NCBI GenBank assembly: GCA_023413275.1
Contig: JAEZPX010000010.1
Span: forward strand, 1 to 37,392
Direction: 5' to 3'
DNA length: 37,392 nucleotides
Source: Bacillota bacterium
GTDB taxonomy: Bacteria > Bacillota > Clostridia > Lachnospirales > Anaerotignaceae
Part shown: positions 3,879 to 30,400 of the stretch, piece by piece
Numbering within the stretch: the stretch's first letter is position 1
How the letters are laid out: each line of letters opens with the position of its first letter
Notes under the pieces: model-generated
What the model was told of the DNA's origin: nothing
The model's database searches: none
The model's input: the letters and a program-made list of their open reading frames with translations, nothing else
Position numbers and translations under genes: made by a program

Positions 3879-3892
3879 TGAAGTACTATTAT

Positions 3893-10248: not shown

Positions 10249-10391
10249 AAAAAAGCCCTCCTAAATAAAAAGTAGATACGCTAGTTTGTGCGTACTTCTT
10301 AAAATTTAAACGGGCGAGGTTTATGGCAAGACTATAGCATATTCATAGTTTGATGTCAATTTAAAAAAGGATGATTTTGCTTTGAGAGGTG

Positions 10392-10420
10392 TTGACAAAA
10401 GAAACAAGGAATGTTATTTT
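10392..10420 (+). promoter_or_regulatory. Candidate sigma-A promoter for the DtxR-like regulator gene
   Basis: TTGACA (10392-10397), 17-nt spacer, TATTTT (10415-10420). The -10 is weak. Confidence 0.3.
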
Positions 10421-10567
10421 CAAAACATAAATAGTTAGCATAGGAAAACTTTTGAAAAATAAGAAATAGTCTTAAAAGTTTGCAAGTGATTAATAAATTT
10501 TGAAGGTTTAGCTGTCACCAAATGAAGGTGTAAGAAATGAAAATAACAAAAAGAGAGGAGATTGAAA

Positions 10568-11311
10568 ATGAAAGAAACAACGGTTTTAGATGGTTTTACA
10601 GAAGCGCAACTCAAGTATATTTTAATCATAAGTGCACTGCAGGATTCCTACGCCACGCTGACTGGAATTGCGGAGAATTTGGGTGTGAAAAAGCCCAGTG
10701 CTTGTCGGATGATTTACCAACTAAAAGATATGGGTGTACTAAAAACAGATGAAAGCAACCGATTTAAAAAAGTTTTTTTAACTCAATTTGGCAATAGTAT
10801 TGCGGCAATGCTGGAGCACCAGCAATATATGATATACAGACTGTTAATCCAGCAATTAGGGACAGACCCAGAGACGGCTCAGCGTCAGGCTGAGAAGCTT
10901 CTTGGGAAGCTAGAGCCAGAGGTGGTGTCTCTTTTGGAGGTAAAATTTAATGAGTTTTGTGAAGAGGATGGTTTACGTGAAGAAACCTATGATGCAAAGC
11001 AATGGGAGAGTCCGGGCGATGGCAGTTATTTCATTCCTTTTAAAATTTTAAAGGCGGATAGTGATATGATTTCCATGGGGAATAAAGGATTTGAACATCC
11101 TTGTATTTTGGTGTTAAATAACGAAAAACAAGAGGTAGTATTAAAATCAAGGGATATATTTTACAAATCTATTTTAGGAAAATGCCTTTATGGAAAATTA
11201 AGCTCTATGAAGTTTAAAAATAGGGAGACAGATACATATCAACTTGCGGAGTGTACCCATTCTATATACAGATTACCGTTAAGTGAAATGAAATGCAAAT
11301 ATGATTCTTAA
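10568..11311 (+). CDS. DtxR/MntR-family (iron-dependent-repressor fold) transcriptional regulator with an additional ~120-aa C-terminal domain of unknown function
   Basis: The N-terminal 125 aa align by eye with DtxR: HTH TGIAENLGVKKPSACRMIYQLKDMGVL ~ [27 protein letters not shown], and dimerisation helices TQFGNSIAAMLEHQQYMIYRLL ~ [22 protein letters not shown]. Most DtxR metal ligands (E83, H98, C102, E105, H106) are not conserved. The track ORF begins at TTG 10562. The ATG at 10568 with SD AGAGGAG 8 nt upstream is preferred. Confidence 0.6.
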   Translation: MKETTVLDGFTEAQLKYILIISALQDSYATLTGIAENLGVKKPSACRMIYQLKDMGVLKTDESNRFKKVFLTQFGNSIAAMLEHQQYMIYRLLIQQLGTDPETAQRQAEKLLGKLEPEVVSLLEVKFNEFCEEDGLREETYDAKQWESPGDGSYFIPFKILKADSDMISMGNKGFEHPCILVLNNEKQEVVLKSRDIFYKSILGKCLYGKLSSMKFKNRETDTYQLAECTHSIYRLPLSEMKCKYDS

Positions 11312-11534
11312 GGAAAAATCGTGACTGGTGTAATCAGAATTATGGCAAGAGCAACTGTGGGCGTTTTTCATATGGCAGAAGCAAAAGCTGATTTGGTACT
11401 TGACTTAACAGCTATTGAAATAAACAGTAGATAGAACATGTAACTTGGTAAAATGTGCATCTATTTTTACGAGTTTAGAGTTTCATTTACATAAAAAAAC
11501 TGGCAAATTCATAGGAAAAAATTTGAAAATAGGT

Positions 11535-11563
11535 TTGACAACAATCTTTAGGTGTGATATAGT
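11535..11563 (+). promoter_or_regulatory. Sigma-A-type promoter (TTGACA-17-TATAGT) for the heme-uptake operon leader
   Basis: TTGACA 11535-11540, exactly 17 nt, TATAGT 11558-11563. GTG at -15 gives partial extended -10 character. Confidence 0.5.
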
Positions 11564-11573
11564 TTACCTGTAA

Positions 11574-11589
11574 GTTAGTTATAACTAAC
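11574..11589 (+). promoter_or_regulatory. Perfect 16-bp palindrome GTTAGTTA.TAACTAAC at about +5 to +20 of the promoter; candidate repressor operator, loosely DtxR iron-box-like
   Basis: GTTAGTTATAACTAAC is its own reverse complement. It sits immediately downstream of the -10. The half-site resembles the DtxR/IdeR box TTAGGTTAGCCTAACCTAA. Confidence 0.4.
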
Positions 11590-11677
11590 AAATTGGAATA
11601 TCATGCTTACACATTGATGAAAAACGGGCGAGGTTTTACATCAAGTATAACATTGTTGCCATAAAAAACGTAATTTT

Positions 11678-11716
11678 CAAGGAATGACCTTTGTGTCGTT
11701 CCTTGTACTATTTTTA
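11678..11716 (+). terminator. Intrinsic-terminator-like hairpin inside the operon leader (attenuator, or 3' end of a ~145-nt leader RNA)
   Basis: 11-bp stem CAAGGAATGAC / GTCGTTCCTTG (one U.G pair), 6-nt loop, followed by UACUAUUUUUAC. It lies ~110 nt downstream of the predicted TSS and ~355 nt upstream of the first start codon. Confidence 0.4.
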
Positions 11717-12070
11717 CGGGAAATTAGCCTAGTCTAATGCTTGATGGCCTAGGGAAATAAAAGTAGGTATGATAAACTTACAAATGCAGTAAGCGAGCGG
11801 ATTTTGTATGACACATGAAAGTTAGCTAGTGCTAACAAAAAAGTTTGCGTACGAAAATCAAGTTGTAGATTGTTTATAATGGCCGAAGTGAACCCTGTTG
11901 AAACAATTCAAGTACTTCGGTTTGATTATAAAAATAGAATATAAAGGAGGTATAAAAGAAAAAAACAGAAAAAATCGTATCAAACCAGAGCAACAAAGCA
12001 AAAACCGGTTTTTGCCCCAAAAAGGGCAGTAAGATAACTTAATATTTACTTATAAAAGGGAGGAATAGTT

Positions 12071-12565
12071 ATGAGAAATTTATTAAAGAAAATTACAGGT
12101 TTGGGTATGGCAACAATGATGGCTTTGAGCATGGGAGTGGTAGCGTTTGCCCAAGAGGCACCCGGATATGTGACGTTCTTCAAAAGTGGCAGCAGTACTG
12201 CAGTTTCAATGACACAAAAAGCTCTTGCTGACTATTCCAGCAAGGTTCAGGTAGGTGACAACTATGTTTACACCATCAATCTACAAACCTTTGAAATGAC
12301 AAAAATGGGGGTATCGGGCGAGGGCTATATGACAGGTATTACATTAGGCTCCACAGCCAAGAATGCAGGTATTACTGCCTCAGTAACCAATGGCGGGGAC
12401 ACGTTAATTGTATCTGTTCCAACAAATCTTGTAATCAACGGTAATTCTGCCAAATATGATGCAAAGATAGAAGCACAGGTCGAACTATTATGGGGAATCA
12501 AATTTGATATGCCTTCATCAGTAAATTTAGCTATTACAGATTCACAATTGACATATTCTGAATAA
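12071..12565 (+). CDS. Small secreted single-NEAT-domain protein (IsdX1-like hemophore candidate)
   Basis: Signal peptide MRNLLKKITGLGMATMMALSMGVVAFA. VSMTQKALADYSSKVQVGDNYVYTINLQT matches the NEAT lip/strand pattern (S-x-M ... KV-x5-N-x2-Y-x3-L, cf. IsdA [26 protein letters not shown]). C-terminal AKYDAKIEAQVEL matches the NEAT Y-x3-Y/LEF strand, with Y-x3-I here. SD GGGAGG lies 8 nt upstream. Confidence 0.5.
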   Translation: MRNLLKKITGLGMATMMALSMGVVAFAQEAPGYVTFFKSGSSTAVSMTQKALADYSSKVQVGDNYVYTINLQTFEMTKMGVSGEGYMTGITLGSTAKNAGITASVTNGGDTLIVSVPTNLVINGNSAKYDAKIEAQVELLWGIKFDMPSSVNLAITDSQLTYSE

Positions 12566-12595
12566 CTAATGCATCCTTTTCACTAAATTATTTTG

Positions 12596-12625
12596 AGAGC
12601 CGAAGGCTTAGCGGCTTTTGGCTCT
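12596..12625 (+). terminator. Hairpin after the NEAT hemophore gene (partial terminator / processing site)
   Basis: AGAGCCGAAGGC / GCTTTTGGCTCT 12-bp stem (2 G.U), followed by a T-rich but interrupted tract ATTATTTATTATATA. Confidence 0.35.
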
Positions 12626-12726
12626 ATTATTTATTATATATTGAAATACTTAAAGCAAGGTATTCGTAAGGAACTTATTGTTAAAAAAGTTCTTGAGGAA
12701 ACTCAATATAGGGGGAGTGAACCAAA

Positions 12727-15700
12727 TTGAAATATAAAAAGTATTTGACAATGTTTTTGGCGGGTACATTGGTAATTTCATCATCGCCGACGAAAATTTT
12801 TGCAGATTCAAACGAACAACAGGTTGAACAGCAGGATGGTTCTGGGGAAAAAGATACTGACATATCAGTAGTAGAAAAAACAGATGAAGGGGAATTCGGT
12901 AAAACCGAGACTAAAGCAGAATCAGAGGGCGTAGAGACAGGTGAGGAAGACAGCGGGGAACTAGAAACGGGGGATACAGAAACTAATGAAGCAGAAACAA
13001 GCAATACAGAAACAGGTAATTCAGAAATTGTCGAGAAAGAAACTGGAGAAATAGAAGCGGGAAACACAGAAACAGGCAACCCAGAGAATGAGGAAACAGG
13101 GGAAACACAAACAACAGAAGGTGCGGAAAATACGGAGGAATCCGAAAATATAAAAGAGGGCGAGGAAGCCCCTATACAAGCGAGTGTGCTTGATGCAAGT
13201 TTAGTATCCAGTACTGATACTGTAGAGGCACCGGCTATTACAGCTCGTGATGACAATGATATCAGTCAAACCTACTATGCAAATAATGCTACAGTAAAGG
13301 TTGAGATAGCAGTACCCGAGGATACCCAGGTATATTATACAATAGACGGTACAGACCCAACAGAGAGTGGAACGAGACAGCTTTATAGTGGGGCATTTAT
13401 TTTGACTGCATCGGGCACAGAGGCAGAAGCGTTGACAATAAAAGCTGTTGCTACCCAGGAGGTAACGGGAGGAGAAAACACCACAACGCAATATTCAGAA
13501 CTGATTACTAAGGAGATATGCTTTATTGCAGAAGTTGATGTGTCGGAACCTGTGATCAAAACATGTGACAGCAGCGGAGATTCTCAGGACAGCTATTCTT
13601 ATTTGTCGCCAGTAACGGTTGAGATTGATGCACCTTTTAATACAGAGGTATTGTTTACAACAGATGGTACTGACCCAATTCAAAGTGACACAAAACAGCT
13701 TTATAAAGGTTCGTTTACAGTTTCACTTCCTATGGCACAATATACGTCGGGAGGAACAACTGAAATAAAAGCGGTGGTAAAAACAGGGGTTGAGTGTGGC
13801 AATGGAGAAATGATCTATGTTTATTCTGATTTAGTGAGTAGTTCCATTGTATTTCGAGCTGCGACAACATTAAAGAACCCGACAATAAAAGCTACGCAGA
13901 AAATAAGCGGTGCAGTTACAACAACATCATCACTGCAGAAGAGTATTTCTAATATAGCTAACAATGAAACGGTTGAGATTGAGATCACCCATCCAAACGA
14001 TGCTTCAAGTAGAATATTGTATACCTTAGATGATACCGATCCAAGGGAGAGCGATACAGCATTAGTTTATACGGATGAATTTTCAATAACTGCTAGCGGT
14101 CTAGCAGCTGAGGCTGTGGTTGTTAGAGTCACTGTTGAAGTAATGGATGGTACACAAAAAACATATACCTCTCCCAGAAAACTTACTCTGAATTTTTTGC
14201 AGGAAGAGATTGCTGCACCTGAGCTTTCTTTCACCCCTTTGGAAAATGGTGAATCAAAATATAAGAATACGGCAGAGGTTACTGCCAATATTACAAATTA
14301 TGATGCACAGCTGGGATATGTTTATACCCTTGATGGAACAGATCCAACCTTGGAAAGCAACGCTTATGATAACAGCATAGGAATTGCGGGAATTAAAGCT
14401 CCTTCCCAGGCAGGAGGTAAGGTAACCATTAAGGTTGCGTCTGTGAAAGAAGGTAAATATTTATCTTCTATAACCACTAAAGAAATTTATTTTAAATCAA
14501 ATGAGGATTTGATACTAACGCAAGGGAATTATATAGCTGATTTTGTAATAAAATGCAATGATGGAAATAATGCATGGTTGAAGGATTACATAGACACCAA
14601 GGATGTTGAGATTAATTTAGATAGTGACGGTAAAATGAGCCTTACAATACGTTTTGTTGAGAAGACAACCGATAATGTGGGAGTTGAAGCTTACAAGTTC
14701 AAGTCCGCAAAAATAGTGAGTTATGAGGGAGAAGAAACAGAACTTGCTTTTGAAGAACCAACTGAGATAAATTCTTATTTGTATAGTTCAAACAGCACTT
14801 ATGTCATAAAAACGGTTACGCTACCTATGGAATCCCTATCCGCTGATGTTCCGGTGCAATTTGAAAATAACAGTGGTGTATGGGTGGATTTTGTTCTTAC
14901 CCTAAATTCGCAGCCAAAGCCAGCATCAGAAAGAAAAATAGATAATTCTGTTATGGGTTACTCTATCATTGCCGGTTCTCAAAATTTAACTTACGATGGT
15001 TATAGACAATATAAAAACCCCATTACAATTACTTTAGACAGCAAGGGATATTCGGTAACAAGACCTATGGTGTATTATTTTACCACAGATGATACAGAGG
15101 AGATAGGTTTGGAATCCAGATCAATGAATTTACCTGTTGTAAATTCTTTATCGGTTGCTACAAATTACGAAGGGGCCGTTGAGGATGCATATGAAATATT
15201 TACCAAGAACAAAGATCCTCATGCTCTTAATATAAGAGTTAAAGGTTATGTTGAAGGTTTAGGTTGGACAGACGAAATTTCTATTCCCTTAAAGTTCAAT
15301 GCAAGGGCTTTGTCAAGTGAAATTGTAGATGCCAATGGAACGGGTACAAAGATGACGACAACAGGAACGTTTCATGATGGGAAAAGCGACTTAGGATATA
15401 CCATTCCGTATGATACAGCTTTTAAAGTAGACACCGAAGAGGATAAAACGAAGATAGAGATTTATTCTAACTTGATTTCACAGGTAAATGCGGAACATGG
15501 CAGTAGCAAAAAAAAGGTGCTAAATATTACTTTGGCAACACCTAGCGGTGGACAAGTGAAAGTTTTGGATGCTTTTGGAGAATTTAAAGAGTCTTTTCTA
15601 AGTATTCCACAAACCGAAGGGTTTTCTGTAGAAGCGGTTTCAGTGTATCACATCAATAAATCCGGAACGGAAGCCATACTGCTTCCTCGTTACGCTGGAA

Positions 15701-18700
15701 GTAACGAAATGGGCTATGGTATGTATAGAATAACAAATGAATATCCCGATGGGGTTTATGTGTTGGTTGCAGGAGAGAATGCTGACATGCCCGCTCTGGC
15801 AAACGGATACTATTATGCAACTGCAAGACTAAAAGACAGTAATAATAAGTTTGAAGCCAATGAATATGCGGATATGATAGACAACAAGTATCAGCAGGGA
15901 TATGCAATGCTTGACATTAGAACTTATTCAAAATATTTGTATCTTCCCCTTGCTAACAAAAATGGGGAGTATGTAAAGGAATTTTATTACTATGATTATA
16001 CAAAGAATGAATATGTGAAAGCAGCGGCTGAGGAAACCTATACAGTGAACGGTGAAAAATATGTAAAACTCGCTAAAATGCCCATAACTACAAAAAAGGC
16101 TTACTTAAATGTATATTTTACAACCTCAGCAGGAAAAAACCAATACGGAATCATGGAAATGGATTATAGCAGTGTTAGTTCAGCAACAGGGATACCTACC
16201 CAAGCGCCGAAAATGACAACTGCAACAGGGGCCACCTCTTATGTGAATGATGGTGAGGCCGTCGTATCTCTAGCCACTGCATCGGAAAATGCAAAGATTT
16301 ACTATACCTGTACCAGTGGAAATACAGGTGTGGATCCTGATACAACAAAGGCAAGCCAAATTTATAAGAATACCTTTGAATTATCCACAGAAAACAAAGA
16401 AGGAGAGATATTTACCATTCGTGCGGTTACGGTGAAAAGTGGATATATCACCTCAGACATGATGGAATTTAAGATTTCCTTTCACAAAGAGGGGATGGCT
16501 GCAATAACCGCAGAAAAACCTACTATTTTTGCAAAATACAAAAGTGGGGATACAGCTACAAATGGTATTTACACTGTGAACATATCAAATGCAACTGATG
16601 AAACATCGGTTTATTATACTACGGATGGTTCTCTGCCTTCGGAACAAAATGGAGCATTATATACAACAAGCTTTGAGGTGCCTGCCCTTACCAATGGTAC
16701 CCCCACAGTCATTCAGGCTATTGCTGTAGGCGCTAATGTTAATGCTTCTGAGATTGCAAAGAAAACCATTGTGTTTTCATCAAATTGGTGGGATAACATG
16801 GAGCCAGGTTATGGCTATGAAGTGCAGATTAAGATGTTGAATTTTGCCAATAATAGCCTTCTATCCATGGGAAATGGAGCATTAACGGGCAAGGCGGTCT
16901 TAACGGTGGATTCAGAGGGCAACCACTTTTTAACAGTGCCTTTTCAGGGCATTAATATGGGTGCCGGTTTGGGTTACTTGATAGATATGTGGTATTTTGA
17001 GAATGAAGATGCAACAGGAGAAGATATATGGAAAGATACAAGGATACAAGGTACCTATACATATTCCGTCTCAGGCAAGATTGCAACGGTAACCATACCT
17101 TTATTTAACAATCATTCCAAGGTGTCTGTTGGGATTGAATCGGATTTTCAAGCCATGGGTAAGCAAAGGGCTACTTTATCTTTGGATTATTCCAAGGTCA
17201 TAGAAGCTGTTACAGGCGATGTTGTTGTGGTGGAAAAGCAAGTTGAGTCACCTATCATTGATGGAGTCTTAAATGCAAAAGGCGATGCCATGACAATTAG
17301 CATTGCTTTGCCATCAGCCAGTGAAGTGAAGGATGCTGACATTTACTATATTGTTAGTGGAAAAGATGATGCCGTTGTTGATAAGATAACTAAAAACAAG
17401 TATACTGGGGCATTTACAATTAGTAAATCTGAGGCGGCTGCGTTTGGGGGGATAGATGATACAGTAAATGTACTTGCAGTGGCCGTAAAGAACGGATACA
17501 TTGATTCTCTTATCAATGTGAAAAAGTTCACTTTTAATACATCAGCTATAGATCCTACCAAGCCGATTGAGGGGGAAGTTGATGTTACAAAGGATGGAAA
17601 ATATTGGGTATATGTAAGCCTTTATAAAGCCAATGATAATGAGCTTTCTATGGGCAATGTAGCATTTGAGAATAATTCCAAGGCTCTTATTGTAACAAGT
17701 GGTGGAAAGTCAGTGATGCAGATGGGTTCAAATCCTGTTAAGATTCCTCCTTATTATTCGGCTCTACAAGAGTTTCAGTTTAAAAATGCTGGAGGAACAT
17801 ATCAGCTTGCCACGGCTTTGGACACAAAGGAGATCAAAACAACCTATAACGGTGTTAACTATTCCTTTGATTATTTGAAAAAGTTTGAATTTACCTTACC
17901 AAGTGTTACAGATAGTTTTATAGATGTAAAGGTGAAGGTACCCTATACCATTATGGATTCTGCAGTGGGGGATAATGCAATTCCAGCAAGACTGAAAATT
18001 GATTGGAGCGGTATTACTGCCGCCAAGGATTCTGATGAGCTTCGTGCCAGTGATTCTGTAGCGGAAAGTACAATTACCATTAAGAGTAGCCCTATTGATG
18101 CAACAGACCCTAAAACTGGAATCCGACTTGTGGCTCCGGCTGATATTTTAATGGAAGGTACAACGCTTGCCGCCGCAGAAATCAAGACGGGTGTCCAGTT
18201 TAAGCTGGTTCAGAAAGCCATCGGGGATGAATTTACAAAGTTTACTGCATTTAGCATCCTTGCAATGCTGGATGAAAAAGAAACAACACCATTAGGAAAT
18301 GTAAAAATCTATATTCCCATTCCTGAGGGCTTTGATGAACAAAGGGTTGCTTTATACAGAGTAAATGAGGATGGAACAAAAACACTAGTTCGTGGAACTG
18401 TGAATCATGGTGGATTAATTCCTGTGGCAAGTGGAGGGGAACCAATTTATTTTGAATTTGAAACTGACAAACTTGGCTTATTTGTGATAGTTGAAACGGA
18501 TGAGGTTTTAAATGTTCCTGTTGTTGCCGAGGTGGTTGAAGAAAAAGAGTTGTTTGATGATATTTCTGGGCACTGGGCTAAGGAATATATTAAAAAAGCT
18601 GTTGAAATGGGGATTTTCCTTGGGACTAGCGAATCAAACTTTGAACCTAATGTAAAAATGACAAGAGGGATGTTTGTCACAGTTCTAGGAAAAATGGAAG

Positions 18701-19125
18701 GAATCACTTCAAAAACCTATAGAGGAGAAAAATTCAATGACGTTAAGGATGGGGATTATTATTCATCCTTTGTGCTTTGGGCATCTGATACGGGTATTGC
18801 AAGGGGGATTGATGAGAATCATTTTGCTCCTAACGAAACAATTACCAGAGAGCAGGTGGCTGCTATGCTTTCAAAGTATGCCCAGATGAAAGGGCTAGAG
18901 CTGAAAAGTGACAGAAATCACGACTTTGCTGATGGTACTGACGTCAGTGATTGGGCAAAGGATAGTGTAGAGGCTCTTGCAAAGGCAGGTGTTCTCAGTG
19001 GACGTGAGAATAGAACCTTTGCACCAAAGGATTCTGCTTCCAGAGCGGAAGTAGCAGTTATTCTTGTGAAGTTTATGGAGGAATATATGCCTTCTGAGAA
19101 CACGCTGGAGACGGAAAAAATCTAA
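12727..19125 (+). CDS. Giant (2132-aa) SLH-anchored cell-surface protein with three NEAT domains and about seven chitobiase/Big-like (CHB_HEX_C-type) repeats; IsdX2/BslK-like heme or hemoprotein receptor
   Basis: TTG start with SD AGGGGGAG 7 nt upstream. Signal peptide MKYKKYLTMFLAGTLVISSSPTKIFA. An acidic E/T/G-rich tandem-repeat region spans about nt 12850-13150. Repeats of the form vYYTtDGTDPt.S...Y...F start at about 13285, 13600, 13970, 14270, 16250, 16560 and 17290. NEAT-like domains at about 14505-14920, 16786-17200 (LSMGNGALTGKAVL) and 17596-18010 (LSMGNVAF ... NYSFDYLKKFEF). Three SLH domains at about 18550-19110 (HWAKEYI ... MTRGMFVTVL ...). Confidence 0.85.
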   Translation: MKYKKYLTMFLAGTLVISSSPTKIFADSNEQQVEQQDGSGEKDTDISVVEKTDEGEFGKTETKAESEGVETGEEDSGELETGDTETNEAETSNTETGNSEIVEKETGEIEAGNTETGNPENEETGETQTTEGAENTEESENIKEGEEAPIQASVLDASLVSSTDTVEAPAITARDDNDISQTYYANNATVKVEIAVPEDTQVYYTIDGTDPTESGTRQLYSGAFILTASGTEAEALTIKAVATQEVTGGENTTTQYSELITKEICFIAEVDVSEPVIKTCDSSGDSQDSYSYLSPVTVEIDAPFNTEVLFTTDGTDPIQSDTKQLYKGSFTVSLPMAQYTSGGTTEIKAVVKTGVECGNGEMIYVYSDLVSSSIVFRAATTLKNPTIKATQKISGAVTTTSSLQKSISNIANNETVEIEITHPNDASSRILYTLDDTDPRESDTALVYTDEFSITASGLAAEAVVVRVTVEVMDGTQKTYTSPRKLTLNFLQEEIAAPELSFTPLENGESKYKNTAEVTANITNYDAQLGYVYTLDGTDPTLESNAYDNSIGIAGIKAPSQAGGKVTIKVASVKEGKYLSSITTKEIYFKSNEDLILTQGNYIADFVIKCNDGNNAWLKDYIDTKDVEINLDSDGKMSLTIRFVEKTTDNVGVEAYKFKSAKIVSYEGEETELAFEEPTEINSYLYSSNSTYVIKTVTLPMESLSADVPVQFENNSGVWVDFVLTLNSQPKPASERKIDNSVMGYSIIAGSQNLTYDGYRQYKNPITITLDSKGYSVTRPMVYYFTTDDTEEIGLESRSMNLPVVNSLSVATNYEGAVEDAYEIFTKNKDPHALNIRVKGYVEGLGWTDEISIPLKFNARALSSEIVDANGTGTKMTTTGTFHDGKSDLGYTIPYDTAFKVDTEEDKTKIEIYSNLISQVNAEHGSSKKKVLNITLATPSGGQVKVLDAFGEFKESFLSIPQTEGFSVEAVSVYHINKSGTEAILLPRYAGSNEMGYGMYRITNEYPDGVYVLVAGENADMPALANGYYYATARLKDSNNKFEANEYADMIDNKYQQGYAMLDIRTYSKYLYLPLANKNGEYVKEFYYYDYTKNEYVKAAAEETYTVNGEKYVKLAKMPITTKKAYLNVYFTTSAGKNQYGIMEMDYSSVSSATGIPTQAPKMTTATGATSYVNDGEAVVSLATASENAKIYYTCTSGNTGVDPDTTKASQIYKNTFELSTENKEGEIFTIRAVTVKSGYITSDMMEFKISFHKEGMAAITAEKPTIFAKYKSGDTATNGIYTVNISNATDETSVYYTTDGSLPSEQNGALYTTSFEVPALTNGTPTVIQAIAVGANVNASEIAKKTIVFSSNWWDNMEPGYGYEVQIKMLNFANNSLLSMGNGALTGKAVLTVDSEGNHFLTVPFQGINMGAGLGYLIDMWYFENEDATGEDIWKDTRIQGTYTYSVSGKIATVTIPLFNNHSKVSVGIESDFQAMGKQRATLSLDYSKVIEAVTGDVVVVEKQVESPIIDGVLNAKGDAMTISIALPSASEVKDADIYYIVSGKDDAVVDKITKNKYTGAFTISKSEAAAFGGIDDTVNVLAVAVKNGYIDSLINVKKFTFNTSAIDPTKPIEGEVDVTKDGKYWVYVSLYKANDNELSMGNVAFENNSKALIVTSGGKSVMQMGSNPVKIPPYYSALQEFQFKNAGGTYQLATALDTKEIKTTYNGVNYSFDYLKKFEFTLPSVTDSFIDVKVKVPYTIMDSAVGDNAIPARLKIDWSGITAAKDSDELRASDSVAESTITIKSSPIDATDPKTGIRLVAPADILMEGTTLAAAEIKTGVQFKLVQKAIGDEFTKFTAFSILAMLDEKETTPLGNVKIYIPIPEGFDEQRVALYRVNEDGTKTLVRGTVNHGGLIPVASGGEPIYFEFETDKLGLFVIVETDEVLNVPVVAEVVEEKELFDDISGHWAKEYIKKAVEMGIFLGTSESNFEPNVKMTRGMFVTVLGKMEGITSKTYRGEKFNDVKDGDYYSSFVLWASDTGIARGIDENHFAPNETITREQVAAMLSKYAQMKGLELKSDRNHDFADGTDVSDWAKDSVEALAKAGVLSGRENRTFAPKDSASRAEVAVILVKFMEEYMPSENTLETEKI
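12850..13150 (+). repeat. Imperfect tandem DNA and peptide repeats encoding an acidic ETG(N)TE low-complexity spacer at the N-terminus of the giant protein
   Basis: Repeated GAAACAGG(C/T)AA(T/C)ACAGAAACAGG-like units. Protein ETGEEDSGELETGDTETNEAETSNTETGNSE.... The antisense frame gives a spurious S/V/P-rich ORF (12681..13256). Confidence 0.6.
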
Positions 19126-19221
19126 AAAATGTGGTGTTTTGTCCTCTTTTGTTTCACACAATAAAATAGACAGTGCCCTCCCTTTGGGGGGGCTGTCTGC
19201 CAATACGAGCGGAGGTAAAAA

Positions 19222-20313
19222 ATGAAGAGAATAGGTTTGAAAAGAATAACTTCTATCATAATGGCCGTAATTTTTTGCAACTGTATGCAGCTAAACGTAT
19301 TCGCCTTAAGTGATGGTATTTATACGGCGGATACACTTACCTATTATATCAATCCTGATACAGGAAAGACTGATGACGGCGGAACGGGGAACGCAGAAAT
19401 CGGCGAGGGAATGTGCAGAAGTGCTGTATATGAAAAGGCATTGGTTGAGCAACAAGATGGAAAGATATGGGTAAGTTTAAGAATGCTTTTATACAGCCAT
19501 ATATCTAATATCAAAATCTATACCCAGAATACACCAAAAGGAGAGTACACGGAGGTCAAGTATTCTGTTATGGCGGAGAACTCCACAAATGATAGTGGAG
19601 ATATGCGCTTTGAGGTGCCTTCAGCAGATTGCTTTGTGAAAACAAAAATGTATGTTGCACCAATGGGCAGAGATGTCTGTTTTTATTGGAAGATAGATGT
19701 AGCAACAGCCCAAAATGGAAATGGTGATTTTGTTAAAACAATTAAATTGGGAACAAAAACAACAAAGCAAGAGGAATTTACAGATGTTACTTCCCACTGG
19801 GCCAAAGCTGATATTGAGAGTGTCGTTTCAAAGAAACTCTTCAGTGGAACAAGCGATTCTACCTTTAGCCCTGATACTGCAATGACAAGAGGAATGTTTG
19901 TAACCGTATTAGGCAGATTGAGCGGAGATGATGTTTCTAAATACAACAGCGGAAAATTTCGGGATGTAGGTGTAAATCAGTATTATGCAAAATATATTGG
20001 ATGGGCAAATGCAAAGGGAATTGTTTCCGGTGTGACAGAGACAACATTTCAGGCTGATTCACCAGTGGCGTGCGAACAGGCTACGGCAATTTTGGTAAAG
20101 TATATGGAATACAAGGGAATTCCCTTTAAAACTAACGGTTCTGTGGCAAAAATGGATACAGTGAGTTCTTGGGCGAAGAAGAGCGTGGAAAAGGCAGGAC
20201 TGGCAGGGATAATTTCAAGTCAAAATACAAATGGATTTCAATTTAAATCCTCAGCCACCAGAGCTGATGTGGCATCTATGGTTATGAATATGATTAACGG
20301 AGCTGAAAAATAG
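19222..20313 (+). CDS. SLH-anchored surface protein with an N-terminal divergent NEAT-like domain and three C-terminal SLH domains (BslK-like)
   Basis: Signal peptide MKRIGLKRITSIIMAVIFCNCMQLNVFA. The N-terminal ~140 aa (IGEGMCRSAVYEKALVEQQDGKIWVSL ... TKMYVAPMGRDVCFYWKIDV) align loosely to the NEAT lip and final strands. SLH repeats: FTDVTSHWAKADIESVV ... AMTRGMFVTVLGRL, then two more. SD GGAGGT lies 7 nt upstream. Confidence 0.7.
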   Translation: MKRIGLKRITSIIMAVIFCNCMQLNVFALSDGIYTADTLTYYINPDTGKTDDGGTGNAEIGEGMCRSAVYEKALVEQQDGKIWVSLRMLLYSHISNIKIYTQNTPKGEYTEVKYSVMAENSTNDSGDMRFEVPSADCFVKTKMYVAPMGRDVCFYWKIDVATAQNGNGDFVKTIKLGTKTTKQEEFTDVTSHWAKADIESVVSKKLFSGTSDSTFSPDTAMTRGMFVTVLGRLSGDDVSKYNSGKFRDVGVNQYYAKYIGWANAKGIVSGVTETTFQADSPVACEQATAILVKYMEYKGIPFKTNGSVAKMDTVSSWAKKSVEKAGLAGIISSQNTNGFQFKSSATRADVASMVMNMINGAEK

Positions 20314-20476
20314 AGCAGTTTTTAAGCTAAAACAAATACCAGGGTGATGGAGAATAGGGACTATGAACGAATTTATGAAGTTTAGAAAAAACGAATGTTC
20401 AGGACAATTACAAATCGGTTTTTAATCCTAAACTTCCAAGCACAACAGCTTGAAATGTTGGGGAAAGGGGAAGAAC

Positions 20477-21556
20477 ATGAAAAGATTGAAGCAAAGGATG
20501 CTAATTCTAATCCTTGGACTTATGATGTTTTCTGCTACAGCTTGTGTGGATCAAAGCGGAGCGAATGCAGAAGAAACGAAGACAGTTACAAAAACAATGT
20601 CAGCGGAAATTGTAGCAGGAAAACAGATAGAAGAAAACACAGAAAAAGAGACCGAAACTAGTAAAGAGGACGATGAGAAACAGAGCGCAGATGGTTCACT
20701 GGATGTGAAAACAGAACAGACCAAGAAATTAGATGCCAAGACTCAGACGCAGGCTGGTAACAAGAAACCTGAGACGGAAGAAGTACGTATTATTGCAACA
20801 TCGGCAGCAACCTGCGAGATAATGAGCCGATTGGGGATTGAATTAATTGGTGTGCCAAATACCACTGTTTCTACAATTCCCTCTCGATATGACAATGCAA
20901 CTCGCATTGGTACGCCTATGGCTCCGGATTTGGAAATCATCAAATCTTTGAATCCTACTGATGTAATAGGACCGGATACGCTAAAAGAGGATTTAAAAAT
21001 AAAATACGATAACATTGGGGTTACAGCTACATTTATCGATTTAAAAAGCGTGAAAGGTTTATATGACAGCATAACTTTGATAGGGAATAAGTATGGGAAA
21101 GCAGAAGAGGCAAAGGCCTTGGTTGAGGACTACAATACCTTCATAAAGGATTATACGTCAAAGCATGTAGTGACAGAAAAACCTAAGGTACTGGTACTTA
21201 TGGGCCTTCCCGGCAGTTATCTTGTGGCGACAAATAAATCTTATGCAGGGTCGTTGGTAGAGCTTGCTGGAGGGGTGAATGTATTTTCCAGTAATGAGAA
21301 GGATTTTCTTAATGTGAACCCAGAAGAAATTTTAAAGACAGATCCTGATATTATCATTCGCACAGCCCATGGACTGCCGAAAGAAGCACTAAAAATGTTT
21401 GCAAAGGAATTTTCAGAAAATGATATTTGGAAGCATTTTAGAGCGGTGCAGGATGGAAAGGTTTTCGATGTGGACTATATGGTTTTTGGCATGAGTGCAA
21501 CCTTTGACTATCCTCAAGCCCTTTCTGATTTAGAGCCTATGCTTTTTGGTGAATGA
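20477..21556 (+). CDS. isdE: Heme-binding substrate-binding lipoprotein, IsdE/HmuT-like (TroA/FecB-type class III SBP)
   Basis: Lipoprotein signal MKRLKQRMLILILGLMMFSATAC. From memory, a strong match to S. aureus IsdE: KPKVLVLMGLPGSYLVATNKSYAGSLVELAGG ~ HPKVLILMGVPGSYLVATDKSYIGDLVKIAGG, and NDIWKHFRAVQDGKVFDV ~ NDIWKHFKAVKNNHVYDL. IsdE heme ligands are conserved (IGTPMAP Met, TAHGLP His). Start moved from the track's 20450 to ATG 20477 (SD AAGGGGAAG). Confidence 0.75.
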   Translation: MKRLKQRMLILILGLMMFSATACVDQSGANAEETKTVTKTMSAEIVAGKQIEENTEKETETSKEDDEKQSADGSLDVKTEQTKKLDAKTQTQAGNKKPETEEVRIIATSAATCEIMSRLGIELIGVPNTTVSTIPSRYDNATRIGTPMAPDLEIIKSLNPTDVIGPDTLKEDLKIKYDNIGVTATFIDLKSVKGLYDSITLIGNKYGKAEEAKALVEDYNTFIKDYTSKHVVTEKPKVLVLMGLPGSYLVATNKSYAGSLVELAGGVNVFSSNEKDFLNVNPEEILKTDPDIIIRTAHGLPKEALKMFAKEFSENDIWKHFRAVQDGKVFDVDYMVFGMSATFDYPQALSDLEPMLFGE

Positions 21557-21557
21557 A

Positions 21558-22544
21558 ATGAGAAAAAGAAAAATATCTGCTTTTTTTATACTGACAATTT
21601 TGCTTTTTGGACTTTTTATGATGTCGGTCAACTTGGGAAGCATCAAGGTTACTTATGGAGAACTTTTCAGGGGGTTATTTATAGAATATAACGAAAATGT
21701 AGCGACCATTTATGATTTAAGATTTCCTAGAATTATAATTGCGATGGTGACGGGGGCCGGACTGGCAGTTTCCGGAGTGCTTTTTCAGGCAGTGCTGAAA
21801 AACCCATTGGCAGACCCAGGTATTATTGGCATTTCCGCAGGGTCAGCCTTTGTTTCTGTATTAATTGTGGCCTTTTTCCCTATGTGGTACTTTTTTACGC
21901 CGTTATTTTCTTTTCTGGGAGGAATCCTTGCTTGTGTATTGGTATATTCTCTTTCTTGGAAAGCGGGGTTTTCGCCCCTTAGAATTATTTTGGTGGGTGT
22001 CGCTATAAATGCAGTATTTACGGGACTCATGGAATCCTTTGGATCAATGAGTGGGCAAAATTATTCCGGTGCTGCTGCAATTGTGAATGCAAATATCTCC
22101 ATGAAAACATGGAAGGATGTACGCCTATTGACAGGATATGTTACCCTAGGACTTATTCTTGCCTTATTTGCAGCCACAAGGTGCAATCTTCTTGCCCTAG
22201 AGGATAAAACCATTCGGAGCCTTGGGGTGAATGTGAATGCTTTAAGAGCGGTTATTTCTATAATTGCCGTACTGCTTGCTTCAATTACTACGGCAGTTGC
22301 CGGTTCGATTAGTTTTATAGGATTAATTGTCCCACATATTGGCAGGCTTATGGTAGGGAGCGACCATAAATATTTAATCCCTTTTTCAATGCTTTTTGGA
22401 GCTTTTACCATGCTTTTGGCGGACACGGTGGGTCGTTTAATTGCCTATCCTTATGAAATTTCTGCTGCGATTATTATGTCGGTCATAGGCGGGCCGTTCT
22501 TTATTGTATTGCTGAAAAGGAGTGACAGGACCTATGGAGGTTAG
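21558..22544 (+). CDS. FecCD-family ABC permease (IsdF-like heme permease)
   Basis: About 9 TM segments with typical FecCD motifs (RIIIAMVTGAGLAVSGVLFQ ... LVGVAINAVFTG ... FIGLIVPHIGRL). ATG at 21558 lies 2 nt after the SBP stop. The track's TTG 21546 is less likely. Confidence 0.8.
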   Translation: MRKRKISAFFILTILLFGLFMMSVNLGSIKVTYGELFRGLFIEYNENVATIYDLRFPRIIIAMVTGAGLAVSGVLFQAVLKNPLADPGIIGISAGSAFVSVLIVAFFPMWYFFTPLFSFLGGILACVLVYSLSWKAGFSPLRIILVGVAINAVFTGLMESFGSMSGQNYSGAAAIVNANISMKTWKDVRLLTGYVTLGLILALFAATRCNLLALEDKTIRSLGVNVNALRAVISIIAVLLASITTAVAGSISFIGLIVPHIGRLMVGSDHKYLIPFSMLFGAFTMLLADTVGRLIAYPYEISAAIIMSVIGGPFFIVLLKRSDRTYGG

Positions 22545-23292
22545 AGAACTGGATTTTTCCTATGGAAAGAATAAAGTTTTAAATGAAATTTCTTTTCAAA
22601 TTCCAAAAGGAAAAATAACAACGCTGATTGGAGCAAATGGCTGTGGAAAATCAACATTATTTCATGTGATGACAAAGAATTTAAGGGCGCAACAAGGTAC
22701 GATTTTTCTTGATGGGAAAAACATAAACGACATCCCTTTAAAGCAGTTTGCAAAGGAGGTTTCTATTGTACACCAATACAATGTTTCTCCCAATGATTTG
22801 ACTGTGAAGAAGCTCATTGGTTATGGGAGAATTGCTCACGGTGGTTTTGGTAAAAAAAACAAGGAACAGGATGATAAATTCATTCATTGGGCAATGGAAA
22901 TTACCGGTTTAAAGGAGTTGCAAGACAGGCAGATTTCTGATTTATCTGGGGGACAGAGACAAAGAGTATGGATTGCCATGGCACTGGCACAAAATACAAA
23001 GATACTATTTTTAGATGAACCCACTACATATTTGGATATACGGTATCAAATTGAGATATTGAAGCTGCTAAAGCGGCTGAATACAGAGCTGGGAATGACA
23101 ATGCTTGTTGTGCTCCATGATATTAATCAGGCAATACAATACAGCGACGAAATAATAGCAATGAGGGATGGAAAAATTATTGCTCAAGGGAGCCCAAGAG
23201 ATGTTGCCACGGAAAAAATATTAAAGTCAGTGTATGATGTAGATTTAAGAGTGGAGAATGTGAATGGAAATATTTTTGTTCTTACAATTTAA
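22534..23292 (+). CDS. ABC transporter ATP-binding protein (FecE/FhuC-like) of the heme importer
   Basis: Walker A GANGCGKST, signature LSGGQRQRVWIAMAL, Walker B ILFLDEPTTYLD, H-loop VLHD. ATG 22534 with SD AAAGGAGTGA, overlapping the permease stop. Confidence 0.85.
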   Translation: MEVRELDFSYGKNKVLNEISFQIPKGKITTLIGANGCGKSTLFHVMTKNLRAQQGTIFLDGKNINDIPLKQFAKEVSIVHQYNVSPNDLTVKKLIGYGRIAHGGFGKKNKEQDDKFIHWAMEITGLKELQDRQISDLSGGQRQRVWIAMALAQNTKILFLDEPTTYLDIRYQIEILKLLKRLNTELGMTMLVVLHDINQAIQYSDEIIAMRDGKIIAQGSPRDVATEKILKSVYDVDLRVENVNGNIFVLTI

Positions 23293-25126: not shown

Positions 25127-25140
25127 AGGAGGGAAAATGT

Positions 25141-25845: not shown

Positions 25846-25847
25846 AT

Positions 25848-26414: not shown

Positions 26415-26476
26415 GCACTTAAATAAATTGGGCAATCATTAACATTTTAAGCAACAATGAAAGTGAGGGCAAAGTA

Positions 26477-27200: not shown

Positions 27201-27598
27201 TTATTTTTTTGGTCTAGAAGTGATTAAAAAAACAAGCATAAATAAATAGTATTAAGGGAGGGTAAACAGAAAAATAAGAGCCTTTAAATTAGAGTGTGAT
27301 TGCAAATGTCCGAGCTACTTTACAAATATTAGCAAAAGGGTAACTAAGGGGACATACTTTAATGATATTATCCTACCATAGATATTTGCAAACAAGCTCA
27401 TAGAGGCATTTTATATACCAATGATTTAATATTTGTAAAAATATAAATCAAAAGAGAGCATTGTTTATTGATATCTTGTTTCTGTAGACAGGCCTGCACA
27501 GATACTTATTCCAAAATTCAATTAGGGAGGGGATTTTTCAGGAAAAATGAAGAACAGAAGGTGGAGGGAAGGTATATTTCAAAGGTTAGGTGGGCGAA

Positions 27599-29893: not shown

Positions 29894-29910
29894 GAGAGGG
29901 GGCAGAAAGA

Positions 29911-30380: not shown

Positions 30381-30400
30381 AAAAAGAGGAGGAATGATAT

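What the first reader, a model, noticed from the sequence alone, without database searches (positions are those of the whole stretch)
12071..23292. Sortase-independent, SLH-anchored Isd-like heme-acquisition locus
The gene order is: a secreted single-NEAT protein, a 2132-aa triple-NEAT SLH protein, a second SLH/NEAT-like protein, an IsdE-like lipoprotein with conserved Met and His heme ligands, a FecCD permease and an ATPase. This reproduces the staphylococcal Isd and B. anthracis IsdX/BslK logic, but all wall-bound components use SLH domains instead of LPXTG/sortase. No IsdG-type heme oxygenase or sortase is present in the locus. The locus is controlled from a promoter carrying an iron-box-like palindrome next to a DtxR-like regulator gene.
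Basis: partly seen in the sequence, partly recalled or inferred. Interest (0 to 1): 0.6.

Follow-up and report, generated by a model that had tools for sequence, protein, structure and literature searches.

The report
SLH-anchored NEAT heme-uptake locus, Anaerotignum
This is a heme-import gene cluster of a strictly anaerobic Anaerotignum bacterium, built like the streptococcal Shr-Shp-HtsABC relay but fixed to the wall by S-layer-homology domains; its most unusual feature is the neighbouring regulator, which carries a cytoplasmic NEAT-like (heme-binding type) domain.

Summary
On the + strand, in the stated order, lie:
- a secreted 164-aa protein whose predicted fold is NEAT;
- a 2132-aa SLH protein with three supportable NEAT domains, two of them Shr-type with both axial Met positions, plus a fourth unproven candidate;
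- a 363-aa Shp-type NEAT protein with SLH domains and both Shp Met ligands;
- an IsdE-equivalog lipoprotein with the Met/His ligands, a FecCD permease and an ATPase.

No sortase signal, sortase, IsdG or Fur box was found.

The interpretation needs three corrections.
1. The closest model is streptococcal Shr-Shp-HtsABC and C. perfringens Cht, not staphylococcal Isd.
2. SLH anchoring is common in this NEAT subfamily: 67 of 108 recovered cluster representatives carry SLH.
3. The "DtxR-like" regulator is a fusion of an MntR/DtxR-like wHTH to a NEAT-like domain. It is restricted to Anaerotignaceae and always sits next to a CydDC-like exporter pair. In this window a C-to-T nonsense codon truncates it.

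Three RTTAG-N6-CTAAY boxes, conserved in all 17 related loci, lie upstream of the operon.

Verdict: a new variant of a known kind, of moderate interest. The regulator is the part worth following.

The parts
12071..12565 (+). Secreted 164-aa hemophore-like protein: signal peptide aa 1-28, then one predicted NEAT-fold domain and no anchor
12596..12625 (+). Terminator-like hairpin after the 164-aa gene (13 pairs plus a T-rich tail). It may raise hemophore transcript levels relative to downstream genes.
   Evidence: Function is inferred.
12727..19125 (+). 2132-aa SLH-anchored multi-NEAT receptor (Shr-like role): signal peptide, acidic linker, Fn3_assoc repeats, N1 candidate, two unknown domains, N2, Fn3_assoc, N3, Fn3_assoc, N4, unknown domain, 3 SLH
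14494..14931 (+). N1 (aa 590-735): NEAT-like candidate, unproven
   Evidence: hhalign gives 49-90% over only 50 columns. No Pfam or PDB match.
15778..16182 (+). N2 (aa 1018-1152): divergent NEAT-family domain without the Ser-Met / Met ligand motifs; possibly a hemoprotein-binding or structural domain
   Evidence: hhalign against the N3/N4 family gives 97.6-98.1%, and 93.6% over 122 columns after shared sequences were removed. Three bridging sequences are recognised by both profiles. No direct Pfam or PDB hit.
16774..17202 (+). N3 (aa 1350-1492): Shr-type NEAT domain with LLSMGN and AMGKQ motifs at the two axial-Met positions
   Evidence: The profile hits Shr NEAT2 9W5Y at E 7.8e-4. It converges with N4 on iteration.
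17560..18021 (+). N4 (aa 1612-1765): Shr-type NEAT domain with ELSMGN and TIMDS motifs; the most conserved and most widespread domain of the protein
   Evidence: Pfam NEAT E 6e-5, below the cut-off. The family profile hits Shr NEAT2 at 1e-27, and columns S28 and M130 are nearly invariant. The Shr ligands Met997 and Met1107 are taken from PMC12796733.
18553..19125 (+). Three C-terminal SLH domains: non-covalent wall anchor
   Evidence: Pfam SLH 109 bits, 3 stretches. PDB Sap SLH at E 5e-10.
19222..20313 (+). 363-aa Shp-type heme shuttle: signal peptide, Shp/NEAT domain (aa 31-174, nt 19312-19743), SLH domains (aa 186 onward)
   Evidence: PF11545 166 bits, NEAT 37.6 bits (above the 32.8 cut-off), SLH 63.8 bits. 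PDB Shp 2Q7A at E 1.5e-14; M64 and M148 align with Shp Met66 and Met153.
20450..21556 (+). IsdE/HtsA-type heme-binding protein, a probable lipoprotein (FSATAC)
   Evidence: TIGR03659 IsdE, 352 bits against a cut-off of 298.65. PDB Lmo2184 at 6.7e-67 and IsdE at 7e-64. Met157 and His307 align with IsdE Met78 and His229.
21546..22544 (+). FecCD-family permease
   Evidence: PF01032, 284.6 bits.
22522..23292 (+). ABC ATPase of the iron/heme-complex type
   Evidence: PF00005, 124 bits. FecE and heme ATPase models score below their cut-offs.
10562..11434 (+). Regulator: MntR/DtxR-like wHTH plus a C-terminal NEAT-like domain. It is 288 aa in all relatives. Here TAA at 11309-11311 interrupts it, and the last 39-40 codons (11312-11431) are still conserved.
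11535..11563 (+). Promoter P1 (TTGACA, 17 nt, TATAGT, with a TG extension)
   Evidence: 11 of 12 matches. Conserved in all aligned loci.
11574..11589 (.). Operator box O1, GTTAG-N6-CTAAC, overlapping the expected transcription start of P1
   Evidence: Half-sites are conserved and the spacer varies across loci. Present in 17 of 17 loci.
11678..11715 (+). Conserved hairpin plus T-run in the leader (terminator or attenuator-like)
   Evidence: The stem is invariant and the loop varies in six loci.
11723..11738 (.). Operator box O2, ATTAG-N6-CTAAT
11821..11836 (.). Operator box O3, GTTAG-N6-CTAAC, about 45 nt upstream of a TATAAT (11875-11880) that has a weak -35
10434..10449 (.). Degenerate box (GTTAGCATAGGAAAAC) just downstream of the regulator's own promoter (10392-10420). 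It is a perfect box in some relatives.
   Evidence: extra matches in L005, L006, L008, L015.
6864..10248 (-). Divergently transcribed CydD-like (8509-10248) and CydC-like (6864-8576) ABC exporter pair, always adjacent to the regulator
   Evidence: CydD 398 bits (cut-off 435) and CydC 303 bits (cut-off 329).

Best explanation
The locus encodes a wall-spanning heme relay of the Shr-Shp-HtsABC type, adapted to a bacterium whose surface proteins attach by S-layer-homology domains.

Proposed pathway (inferred from homology):
1. A small secreted NEAT-fold protein acts as a hemophore. The outer part of the 2132-aa SLH-anchored receptor also captures heme or a hemoprotein.
2. The receptor's two Shr-type NEAT domains, N3 and N4, hold heme between a Ser-Met motif and a second Met.
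3. Heme passes to the SLH-anchored Shp-type protein (Met64/Met148), then to the IsdE/HtsA-type lipoprotein (Met157/His307).
4. The FecCD permease and the ATPase import it.

No oxygen-dependent heme oxygenase is encoded nearby. That fits a strict anaerobe, which may use heme intact or degrade it by an enzyme encoded elsewhere.

Regulation (inferred): transcription starts at a strong promoter whose start site is covered by a GTTAG-N6-CTAAC box, and two more boxes lie in the long conserved leader. The likely binding protein is the adjacent regulator, an MntR/DtxR-like wHTH fused to a cytoplasmic NEAT-like domain that keeps both Met ligand positions. The simplest model is that it senses cytoplasmic heme and feeds back on import.

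What is shown: domain identities, ligand-position conservation, synteny and operator conservation. What is inferred: heme binding, the direction of transfer, and which protein binds the boxes and with what sign.
For: Gene order and domain content:
- Gene order and domains.
- The Shp domain scores 166 bits, and both Shp Met ligands align.
- The binding protein passes the IsdE equivalog cut-off, with the Met/His ligands aligned.

NEAT domains of the large protein and the 164-aa protein:
- The N3/N4 family profile hits Shr NEAT2 at E 1e-27, followed only by other NEAT structures. The nearly invariant Ser and Met columns coincide with Shr Ser996/Met997 and Met1107.
- N2 relates to that family at 93.6-98%.
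- SLH domains score above the cut-off in both wall proteins. No sorting signal was found.

Synteny and cis-elements:
- The whole arrangement is conserved in Anaerotignum genomes, down to 70% regulator identity.
- RTTAG-N6-CTAAY occurs three times in the window, all within 11574-11836. 0.15 are expected, and 1 of 100 shuffles reaches 3.
- The same triplet is present in nearly all of the 17 related loci, and two of the three boxes in the remaining two. It moves with the hemophore operon in the rearranged locus L007.

Regulator NEAT-like domain:
- All 16 homologs hit Pfam NEAT at E<=0.01.
- The best PDB sequence hit is IsdX1 NEAT at 8.5e-5.
- The global profile alignment gives 95.7% and places ISMGN and FHM on the two Met columns.
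Against: - No experiment exists for any of these proteins.
- Pfam NEAT does not reach its gathering score on the 164-aa protein, on the 2132-aa protein or on the regulator.
- The NEAT assignment of the 164-aa protein rests on a predicted structure. Four of its five models had pLDDT below 67, and Foldseek found no hit at E<=1e-3.
- The binding of the regulator to the boxes is inferred from adjacency and from the resemblance of the half-sites to DtxR-type boxes.
- A terminator-like hairpin between P1 and the first gene shows the control is more complex than one repressor at one promoter.
- In the rearranged locus L007 the regulator stays with the exporter pair, not with the uptake genes.
- In this window the regulator is truncated.
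Confidence: 0.75

Rival explanations
1. The regulator is an ordinary metal-sensing (Mn or Fe) MntR/DtxR-type repressor. Its C-terminal beta-sandwich is only a structural appendage, like the SH3-like third domain of DtxR. The operon then responds to metal status and not to heme.
For: Pfam Fe_dep_repress scores above its cut-off (28 against 26). There is a partial match to the MntR models (E 5.7e-11) and a weak Fe_dep_repr_C match. The half-sites GTTAG/CTAAC resemble DtxR/IdeR boxes (my own knowledge). Streptococcal shr-shp-hts is controlled by the DtxR-family MtsR (my own knowledge).
Against: The dimerisation and metal-binding domain matches only below its cut-off, and in 7 of 16 members. The C-terminal domain keeps the Ser-Met and second Met positions invariant across the family, together with His177, Cys179 and His268. 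That conservation is not expected of a passive appendage. The N-terminal domain matches MarR-type zinc regulators about as well as it matches MntR.
Confidence: 0.3
2. The system takes up heme as a cofactor for a heme auxotroph, or buffers heme at the surface, rather than using it as an iron source. The CydDC-like exporter and the importer together set cellular heme levels.
For: No heme-degrading enzyme is present in the locus or the window. The organism is a strict anaerobe (my own knowledge of Anaerotignum propionicum; taxon). No Fur box was found. The neighbouring exporter is CydDC-like, and CydDC is a heme transporter (PMC10374445).
Against: Nothing in the window shows heme auxotrophy. A heme-degrading enzyme could be encoded elsewhere. 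The exporter pair scores just below both CydD and CydC equivalog cut-offs.
Confidence: 0.35
3. The transported ligand is another tetrapyrrole or an iron chelate (corrinoid, siderophore). The NEAT-like domains would then serve in adhesion or S-layer architecture.
For: The binding protein also gives weak matches to BtuF and siderophore binders. N1, N2 and three other domains of the large protein have no recognisable heme ligands. Fn3_assoc and CHB_HEX_C_1 repeats are typical of glycan-active surface proteins.
Against: The IsdE equivalog score lies above its curated cut-off, about 300 bits above the next family. Both IsdE ligands and both Shp ligands are conserved. The N3/N4 ligand columns are conserved across 40 diverse members.
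Confidence: 0.07

Closest known systems
Streptococcus pyogenes Shr-Shp-HtsABC (sia) heme relay
   Same: The gene order is the same: large multi-NEAT receptor, Shp, lipoprotein, permease, ATPase. The Shp family domain PF11545 is present with both axial Met residues. The receptor NEAT domains are closest to Shr NEAT2 and share its Ser-Met and Met ligand positions. The binding protein has Met/His ligands, as HtsA does. Neither system uses sortase.
   Different: Anchoring is by SLH domains, not by a C-terminal membrane segment. There are no detectable DUF1533/HID hemoglobin-binding domains or leucine-rich repeats. Instead there are Fn3_assoc repeats and several unknown domains. There is an extra secreted NEAT-fold protein upstream. 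The regulator carries a NEAT-like domain. The host is a non-pathogenic strict anaerobe.
Clostridium perfringens Cht locus (ChtD, ChtE, ChtABC, sortase)
   Same: It is a clostridial locus with a multi-NEAT receptor, a single-NEAT Shp-like protein and an HtsA-like transporter. Its NEAT domains lack YXXXY and have conserved Met positions (PMC5026354).
   Different: Cht proteins carry an LPQTG-type signal, and the locus encodes a sortase and has a Fur box. Here there is no sorting signal, no sortase and no Fur box.
Bacillus anthracis BslK and IsdX1/IsdX2
   Same: BslK is the characterised precedent for an SLH-anchored heme-binding NEAT protein (PMC4143258). IsdX1 is the precedent for a secreted single-NEAT hemophore. 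The regulator's NEAT-like domain is closest in sequence to IsdX1.
   Different: BslK hands heme to sortase-anchored IsdC within an Isd locus that encodes sortase B and IsdG (my own knowledge). Here every wall component uses SLH, and the ligands are of the Met type rather than Tyr.
Staphylococcus aureus Isd system
   Same: The binding protein meets the IsdE equivalog model with the Met78/His229 equivalents. The cascade follows the same NEAT relay logic.
   Different: There are no LPXTG or NPQTN signals, no SrtB, no IsdG/IsdI, no YXXXY tyrosine ligands and no Fur box.
Heme-responsive regulators and exporters (HrtR-HrtBA, PefR-PefCD, CydDC)
   Same: A cytoplasmic regulator sits next to an ABC exporter with a heme connection.
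   Different: To my knowledge, known heme sensors are TetR, MarR or two-component types. None is reported with a NEAT domain. A survey of 343 NEAT domains found no cytosolic proteins (PMC4143258).

Membership tests
NEAT domain (PF05031) | Sequence match at or above the Pfam gathering score (32.8 bits) | tested here: inconclusive
   Met for the 363-aa protein (37.6 bits). Not met for the 164-aa protein (no hit), for the 2132-aa protein (17-24 bits) or for the regulator (22-24 bits). A 40-member profile containing N3 and N4 hits solved NEAT domains at E 1e-27 to 3e-4, and 23 of the 40 members hit PF05031 at E<=1e-3.
NEAT domain (PF05031) | Eight-stranded beta-sandwich NEAT fold | tested here: met
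NEAT domain (PF05031) | Heme-ligand motifs: canonical SXXXXY and YXXXY, or Shr/Shp-type Ser-Met plus a second Met | tested here: met
   The Shr/Shp-type positions are present in N3, N4, the Shp-like protein and the regulator. They are absent from N2. In the 164-aa protein only the first motif (SM) aligns. Canonical YXXXY was not seen.
Shp family (PF11545) | Match above the gathering score, with Met66 and Met153 equivalents | tested here: met
   166 bits against a cut-off of 26.4. PDB 2Q7A at E 1.5e-14, with M64 and M148 aligned to the two ligands.
IsdE / HtsA heme-binding protein (TIGR03659) | Score above the equivalog cut-off, with Met and His axial ligands | tested here: met
   352.3 bits against 298.65. 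Met157 and His307 align with IsdE Met78 and His229.
Staphylococcal Isd system | Sortase-dependent anchoring (LPXTG/NPQTN signals, SrtB in the locus) | tested here: not met
   None of the four exported proteins has a C-terminal sorting signal. No sortase domain is present in any scanned ORF of the window.
Staphylococcal Isd system | IsdG/IsdI heme oxygenase and Fur-box control | tested here: not met
   No such domain is present in the window. There is no Fur-box-like site near the locus with up to 3 mismatches.
Streptococcal Shr-Shp-HtsABC | Gene order: receptor, Shp, binding protein, permease, ATPase | tested here: met
Streptococcal Shr-Shp-HtsABC | Shr architecture (N-terminal DUF1533/HID domains, NEAT1, LRR, NEAT2, membrane anchor) | tested here: not met
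   Only the NEAT2-type domains are shared. Pfam finds Fn3_assoc, CHB_HEX_C_1 and SLH instead.
SLH-anchored surface proteins | SLH repeats above the gathering score | tested here: met
   109 bits with 3 stretches in the 2132-aa protein, and 63.8 bits with 2 stretches in the 363-aa protein. PDB Sap SLH matches.
DtxR/MntR family regulators | N-terminal wHTH (PF01325) plus a metal-binding dimerisation domain (PF02742) with conserved metal ligands | tested here: inconclusive
   PF01325 scores 28 bits against a cut-off of 26. PF02742 scores 18 bits against 27. MntR equivalog models score far below their cut-offs. The N-terminal half matches MarR-type AdcR and SlyA about as well as it matches MntR. 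Metal ligands were not mapped reliably.
CydDC heme/thiol exporter | Scores above the CydD and CydC equivalog cut-offs | tested here: not met
   These are the best-scoring families, but both fall just below their cut-offs (398 against 435; 303 against 329). I call the pair CydDC-like only.

The most novel reading that the evidence does not exclude
The 288-aa regulator family (truncated in this window) is a heme-sensing transcription factor that uses a cytoplasmic NEAT domain as its ligand-binding module. This would be the first NEAT domain working inside the cell. It was probably captured from the neighbouring receptor's N4-type domain and fused to an MntR/DtxR-like DNA-binding domain. Through the RTTAG-N6-CTAAY boxes it would couple heme import to cytoplasmic heme. 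Together with a second conserved element shared with the CydDC-like exporter promoter, it would form a self-contained heme homeostasis module.
Probability: 0.45. Interest if true: 0.75.

Novelty: new variant of a known kind. Interest (0 to 1): 0.5.

Why it matters
NEAT-based heme capture has been studied almost only in aerobic or facultative pathogens that use sortase-anchored proteins. Here a complete Shr/Shp/IsdE-type relay sits in a strictly anaerobic fermenter of gut and bioreactor habitats, and it is anchored entirely by SLH domains. In the data retrieved here, SLH anchoring is the commonest architecture of this NEAT subfamily (67 of 108 representatives). Non-covalent, S-layer-linked heme relays may therefore be widespread and unstudied.

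The more consequential point is the regulator. If a NEAT domain serves as a cytoplasmic heme sensor fused to a DNA-binding domain, that extends the known roles of the fold. It would also offer a compact heme-responsive switch with a defined operator.

Tried and rejected
- Self-BLAST of the 2132-aa protein found no internal repeats.
- Pfam at E<=10 on nine cut-out segments recovered only the N4 and regulator matches, both below the cut-off.
- The first profile-profile comparisons, with 4-18 close orthologs, were mostly uninformative. They became informative only after the representative-library search and local iteration.
- The word-indexed homolog search with the 1191-aa middle region returned only 3 proteins, because of its candidate cap.
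- N1 and N2 profiles gave no direct PDB or Pfam support. N2 is accepted on profile-profile evidence with shared sequences removed. N1 is left open.
- The three other unknown domains (aa 738-860, 862-1015, 1785-1925) are not NEAT-like. The latter two are related to each other.
- The AlphaFold model of the regulator was of low confidence, so its fold search counts only as weak support.
- Rfam found nothing in the window at gathering scores, and nothing credible in the leader at E<=1.
- No Fur box was found.
- I considered and rejected the idea that SLH anchoring is what makes this locus unusual.
- I considered and rejected filing the locus as a member of the staphylococcal Isd system, because its defining sortase and IsdG features are not met.

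Full report
**Observation**

A 249-aa regulator ORF lies upstream at 10562-11311. GC skew and strand bias change at about 10.2 kb, which fits a divergent gene pair there.

**The clear-cut components**

- The 363-aa protein matches HemeBinding_Shp (PF11545) at 166 bits, NEAT at 37.6 bits (cut-off 32.8) and SLH at 63.8 bits.
  - Against solved structures its best hit is S. pyogenes Shp (2Q7A, E 1.5e-14).
  - Counting along that alignment, its Met64 and Met148 fall on Shp Met66 and Met153, the two axial heme ligands (ligand identities from PMC5026354).
- The 368-aa protein passes the curated IsdE equivalog model (352 bits against 298.65). The next family scores about 300 bits lower.
  - Its best structural relatives are Listeria Lmo2184 and S. 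aureus IsdE.
  - Met157 and His307 align with IsdE Met78 and His229.
  - It has a lipoprotein-like FSATAC signal.
- The permease is FecCD (285 bits) and the last gene encodes an ABC ATPase.

**The large protein**

Pfam finds four Fn3_assoc/CHB_HEX_C_1 repeats, three C-terminal SLH domains, and one NEAT match below threshold at aa 1621-1705. By eye there are four NEAT-like stretches, which I call N1 to N4.

A search of 1.84 billion cluster representatives with aa 585-1775 gave 252 relatives. Most of them match only the N4 region.

- **N3 and N4.** Iterating domain profiles locally on the retrieved proteins made the N3 and N4 profiles converge on the same 223-229 domains in 108 proteins. The N3 profile then hits N4 at 4.7e-40.
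  - A 40-member, less-than-50%-identical sample that includes the window's N3 and N4 (alignment A7) hits Shr NEAT2 (9W5Y) at E 1e-27. Below it come only other NEAT structures: IsdX2-N5, IsdX1, Hbp2-N2, Shr NEAT1 and IsdC.
  - 23 of the 40 members match Pfam NEAT at E<=1e-3, the best at 2e-17.
  - The nearly invariant columns are a Tyr, the Ser of a Ser-Met motif and a C-terminal Met. In the alignment to 9W5Y they coincide with Ser996-Met997 and Met1107, the axial ligands described in PMC12796733.
  - The window's N4 has ELSMGN and TIMDS at these positions. N3 has LLSMGN and AMGKQ.
- **N2.** It lacks these motifs but aligns with the N3/N4 family over its full length: 97.6-98.1%, and 93.6% (E 2e-7, 122 columns) after I removed three sequences that both profiles had recruited. 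It has no direct Pfam or PDB hit.
- **N1.** It has only a 50-column partial match and no PDB hit.

"Triple-NEAT" is therefore defensible, with two probable heme binders. The other three domains (aa 738-860, 862-1015, 1785-1925) remain unknown.

**The 164-aa protein**

It has a signal peptide and no anchor. It has no Pfam, NCBIfam or PDB sequence match. Its family comprises 18 clusters, all from Anaerotignum and its relatives; one source names one member "NEAT domain-containing".

An invariant SMTQ sits on the short helix where NEAT domains carry their lip motif, and there is an invariant MPS near the last strand. Only the first of these aligns by profile.

I accept "secreted single-NEAT protein" at the level of a predicted fold. 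A strong terminator-like hairpin follows the gene.

**What is absent**

None of the exported proteins has a C-terminal sorting signal. Every ORF of 100 aa or more on a plausible strand was scanned, and none is a sortase or an IsdG-type enzyme. There is no Fur-box-like site near the locus. Downstream of the ATPase come an SPFH/zinc-ribbon protein and a PBSX-like phage tail module, so the locus ends at 23292.

**Origin and conservation**

Close relatives of the regulator and of the 164-aa protein come only from:
- Anaerotignum propionicum (strain DFI.7.94);
- other Anaerotignum species;
- "Tyzzerella sp. UBA1042";
- Anaerotignaceae and Lachnospiraceae MAGs.

The arrangement is: DUF454, ABC exporter pair, then (divergently) regulator, 164-aa gene, roughly 2137-aa SLH protein, Shp-SLH, IsdE-like protein, FecCD and ATPase. 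It is kept in all of them. In one rearranged genome the hemophore and receptor genes lie on the other side of the exporter pair while the regulator stays beside the exporter.

**The regulator**

The window's ORF is 249 aa, but all 15 homologs are 287-288 aa. Translating past the stop shows 39-40 further conserved codons.

The near-identical contig L010 and all other relatives have CAA where the window has TAA at 11309-11311. This is either a recent nonsense mutation or a sequencing error.

The N-terminal half matches Fe_dep_repress just above its cut-off, and MntR models only partially.

The C-terminal half is NEAT-like:
- All 16 members match Pfam NEAT at E<=0.01, the best at 1.4e-6.
- The best PDB sequence hit of the whole protein is the IsdX1 NEAT domain at 8.5e-5.
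- The profile comparison with the N3/N4 family gives 95-96%. In global mode it places the invariant ISMGN and FHM on the two Met ligand columns.

A DNA-binding protein without a signal peptide must be cytoplasmic. A survey of 343 NEAT domains reported no cytosolic proteins (PMC4143258). The truncation in this window removes the strand that carries His268-Met269.

**Cis-elements**

Three promoters stand out:
- one for the exporter pair, on the minus strand (10359-10331);
- one for the regulator (10392-10420);
- P1 (11535-11563).

Generalised to RTTAG-N6-CTAAY it occurs three times in the window, all between 11574 and 11836. 0.15 are expected, and 1 of 100 shuffles reaches three.

Across loci the half-sites are conserved while the 6-nt spacers vary. 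The triplet, with similar spacing, is present in nearly all of the 17 related loci, and two of the three boxes in the remaining two. Several loci have a fourth box at the regulator's own promoter. The triplet also travels with the hemophore operon in the rearranged genome.

Between P1 and the first gene lies about 500 nt of conserved leader. It contains a terminator-like hairpin whose stem is invariant and whose loop varies.

A second 15-nt element, AAACGGGCGAGGTTT, occurs exactly twice: once just downstream of the exporter promoter and once in this leader. It is invariant in all loci. I cannot explain it.

**The neighbouring exporter**

The two half-transporters score best against CydD (398 bits, cut-off 435) and CydC (303 bits, cut-off 329). 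CydDC is now regarded as a heme transporter (PMC10374445, PMC10691846). The neighbourhood therefore looks heme-centred on both sides of the regulator, but I call the pair CydDC-like only.

**Mechanism proposed**

Shown:
- domain identities;
- conservation of the ligand positions;
- SLH anchors and the absence of sortase signals;
- synteny;
- a conserved set of operators.

Inferred:
- Heme is captured by the secreted NEAT protein and by the receptor. It is held by N3/N4 through Met ligation, passed to the Shp-like protein and then to the Met/His lipoprotein, and imported.
- The regulator binds the RTTAG boxes and responds to cytoplasmic heme through its NEAT-like domain.

The sign of regulation cannot be deduced. 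O1 at the start site suggests repression at P1. O3, about 58 nt upstream of a possible second start site with a weak -35, could equally be an activator site.

**Comparison and novelty**

The system works like streptococcal Shr-Shp-HtsABC and C. perfringens Cht, and shares the IsdE-type receptor with Isd systems. It is not a member of the staphylococcal Isd system, whose sortase, IsdG and Fur features are not met here.

SLH-anchored NEAT proteins have one characterised precedent, BslK. In my sample they are the majority architecture of this NEAT subfamily: 67 of 108 have SLH and 6 have a sortase signal. The anchoring is therefore a common but unstudied variant, not a singular feature.

The wHTH-NEAT regulator is the element without a described counterpart.

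Overall this is a new variant of a known kind, with interest 0.5. The regulator hypothesis has a probability of about 0.45 and would deserve about 0.75 if true.

Noticed in passing
window 11309-11311 (and 11312-11434): The regulator gene carries an in-frame TAA where a near-identical contig (L010) and all other relatives have CAA (Gln250). The 39-40 codons after it are still conserved. This is either a recent nonsense allele, which would remove the strand bearing His268-Met269 of the NEAT-like domain, or a sequencing error.
   Followed up: yes
window 10308-10322 and 11622-11636: An exact 15-nt element, AAACGGGCGAGGTTT, occurs twice: just downstream of the CydD-like gene's promoter and in the leader of the heme operon. 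Both copies are on the + strand although the two units are transcribed in opposite directions. It is invariant in all aligned relatives and is not an RTTAG box. Its function is unknown; it may be the site of a second regulator.
   Followed up: partly
window 11564-12070: The leader is about 500 nt long and highly conserved. It has a terminator-like hairpin plus T-run (11678-11715), a possible second promoter (TATAAT at 11875-11880, weak -35) and further conserved hairpins (about 11883-11925 and 12000-12030). No Rfam family matches it.
   Followed up: partly
window 6864-10248 (- strand): A heterodimeric ABC exporter pair scores best against CydD and CydC, just below both equivalog cut-offs. It is always adjacent and divergent to the NEAT-like regulator, even in the genome where the uptake genes have moved.
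   Followed up: partly
window 6007-6737 (- strand): DUF454 (YbaN-like) and YgbA_NO family genes lie downstream of the exporter pair. DUF454 is conserved at this position in relatives.
   Followed up: no
window 27590-36778: A PBSX/XkdN-like contractile phage-tail module: HK97-gp10-like protein, tail terminator, sheath, tube, XkdN chaperone, LysM protein, YqbQ-like protein, sheath initiator, baseplate J and Gp48-like protein. It is a prophage or tailocin region unrelated to the finding.
   Followed up: partly
window 23822-25126: An SPFH/Band-7 protein with several C-terminal zinc-ribbon domains lies directly after the heme operon. Three ORFs with no family match follow it (25108-27130).
   Followed up: no
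window 41-5440 (- strand): A hybrid PAS/HisKA/receiver/Hpt sensor kinase (41-3463) and an SLH plus CAP-domain surface protein (3893-5440). The latter confirms that SLH anchoring is the general surface-display mode of this organism.
   Followed up: no
2132-aa protein, aa 862-1015 and 1785-1925 (window 15310-15771 and 18079-18501): Two domains of unknown family are related to each other (hhalign 92%). The second type occurs in 82 of the retrieved relatives, typically between the last NEAT domain and the SLH domains.
   Followed up: partly
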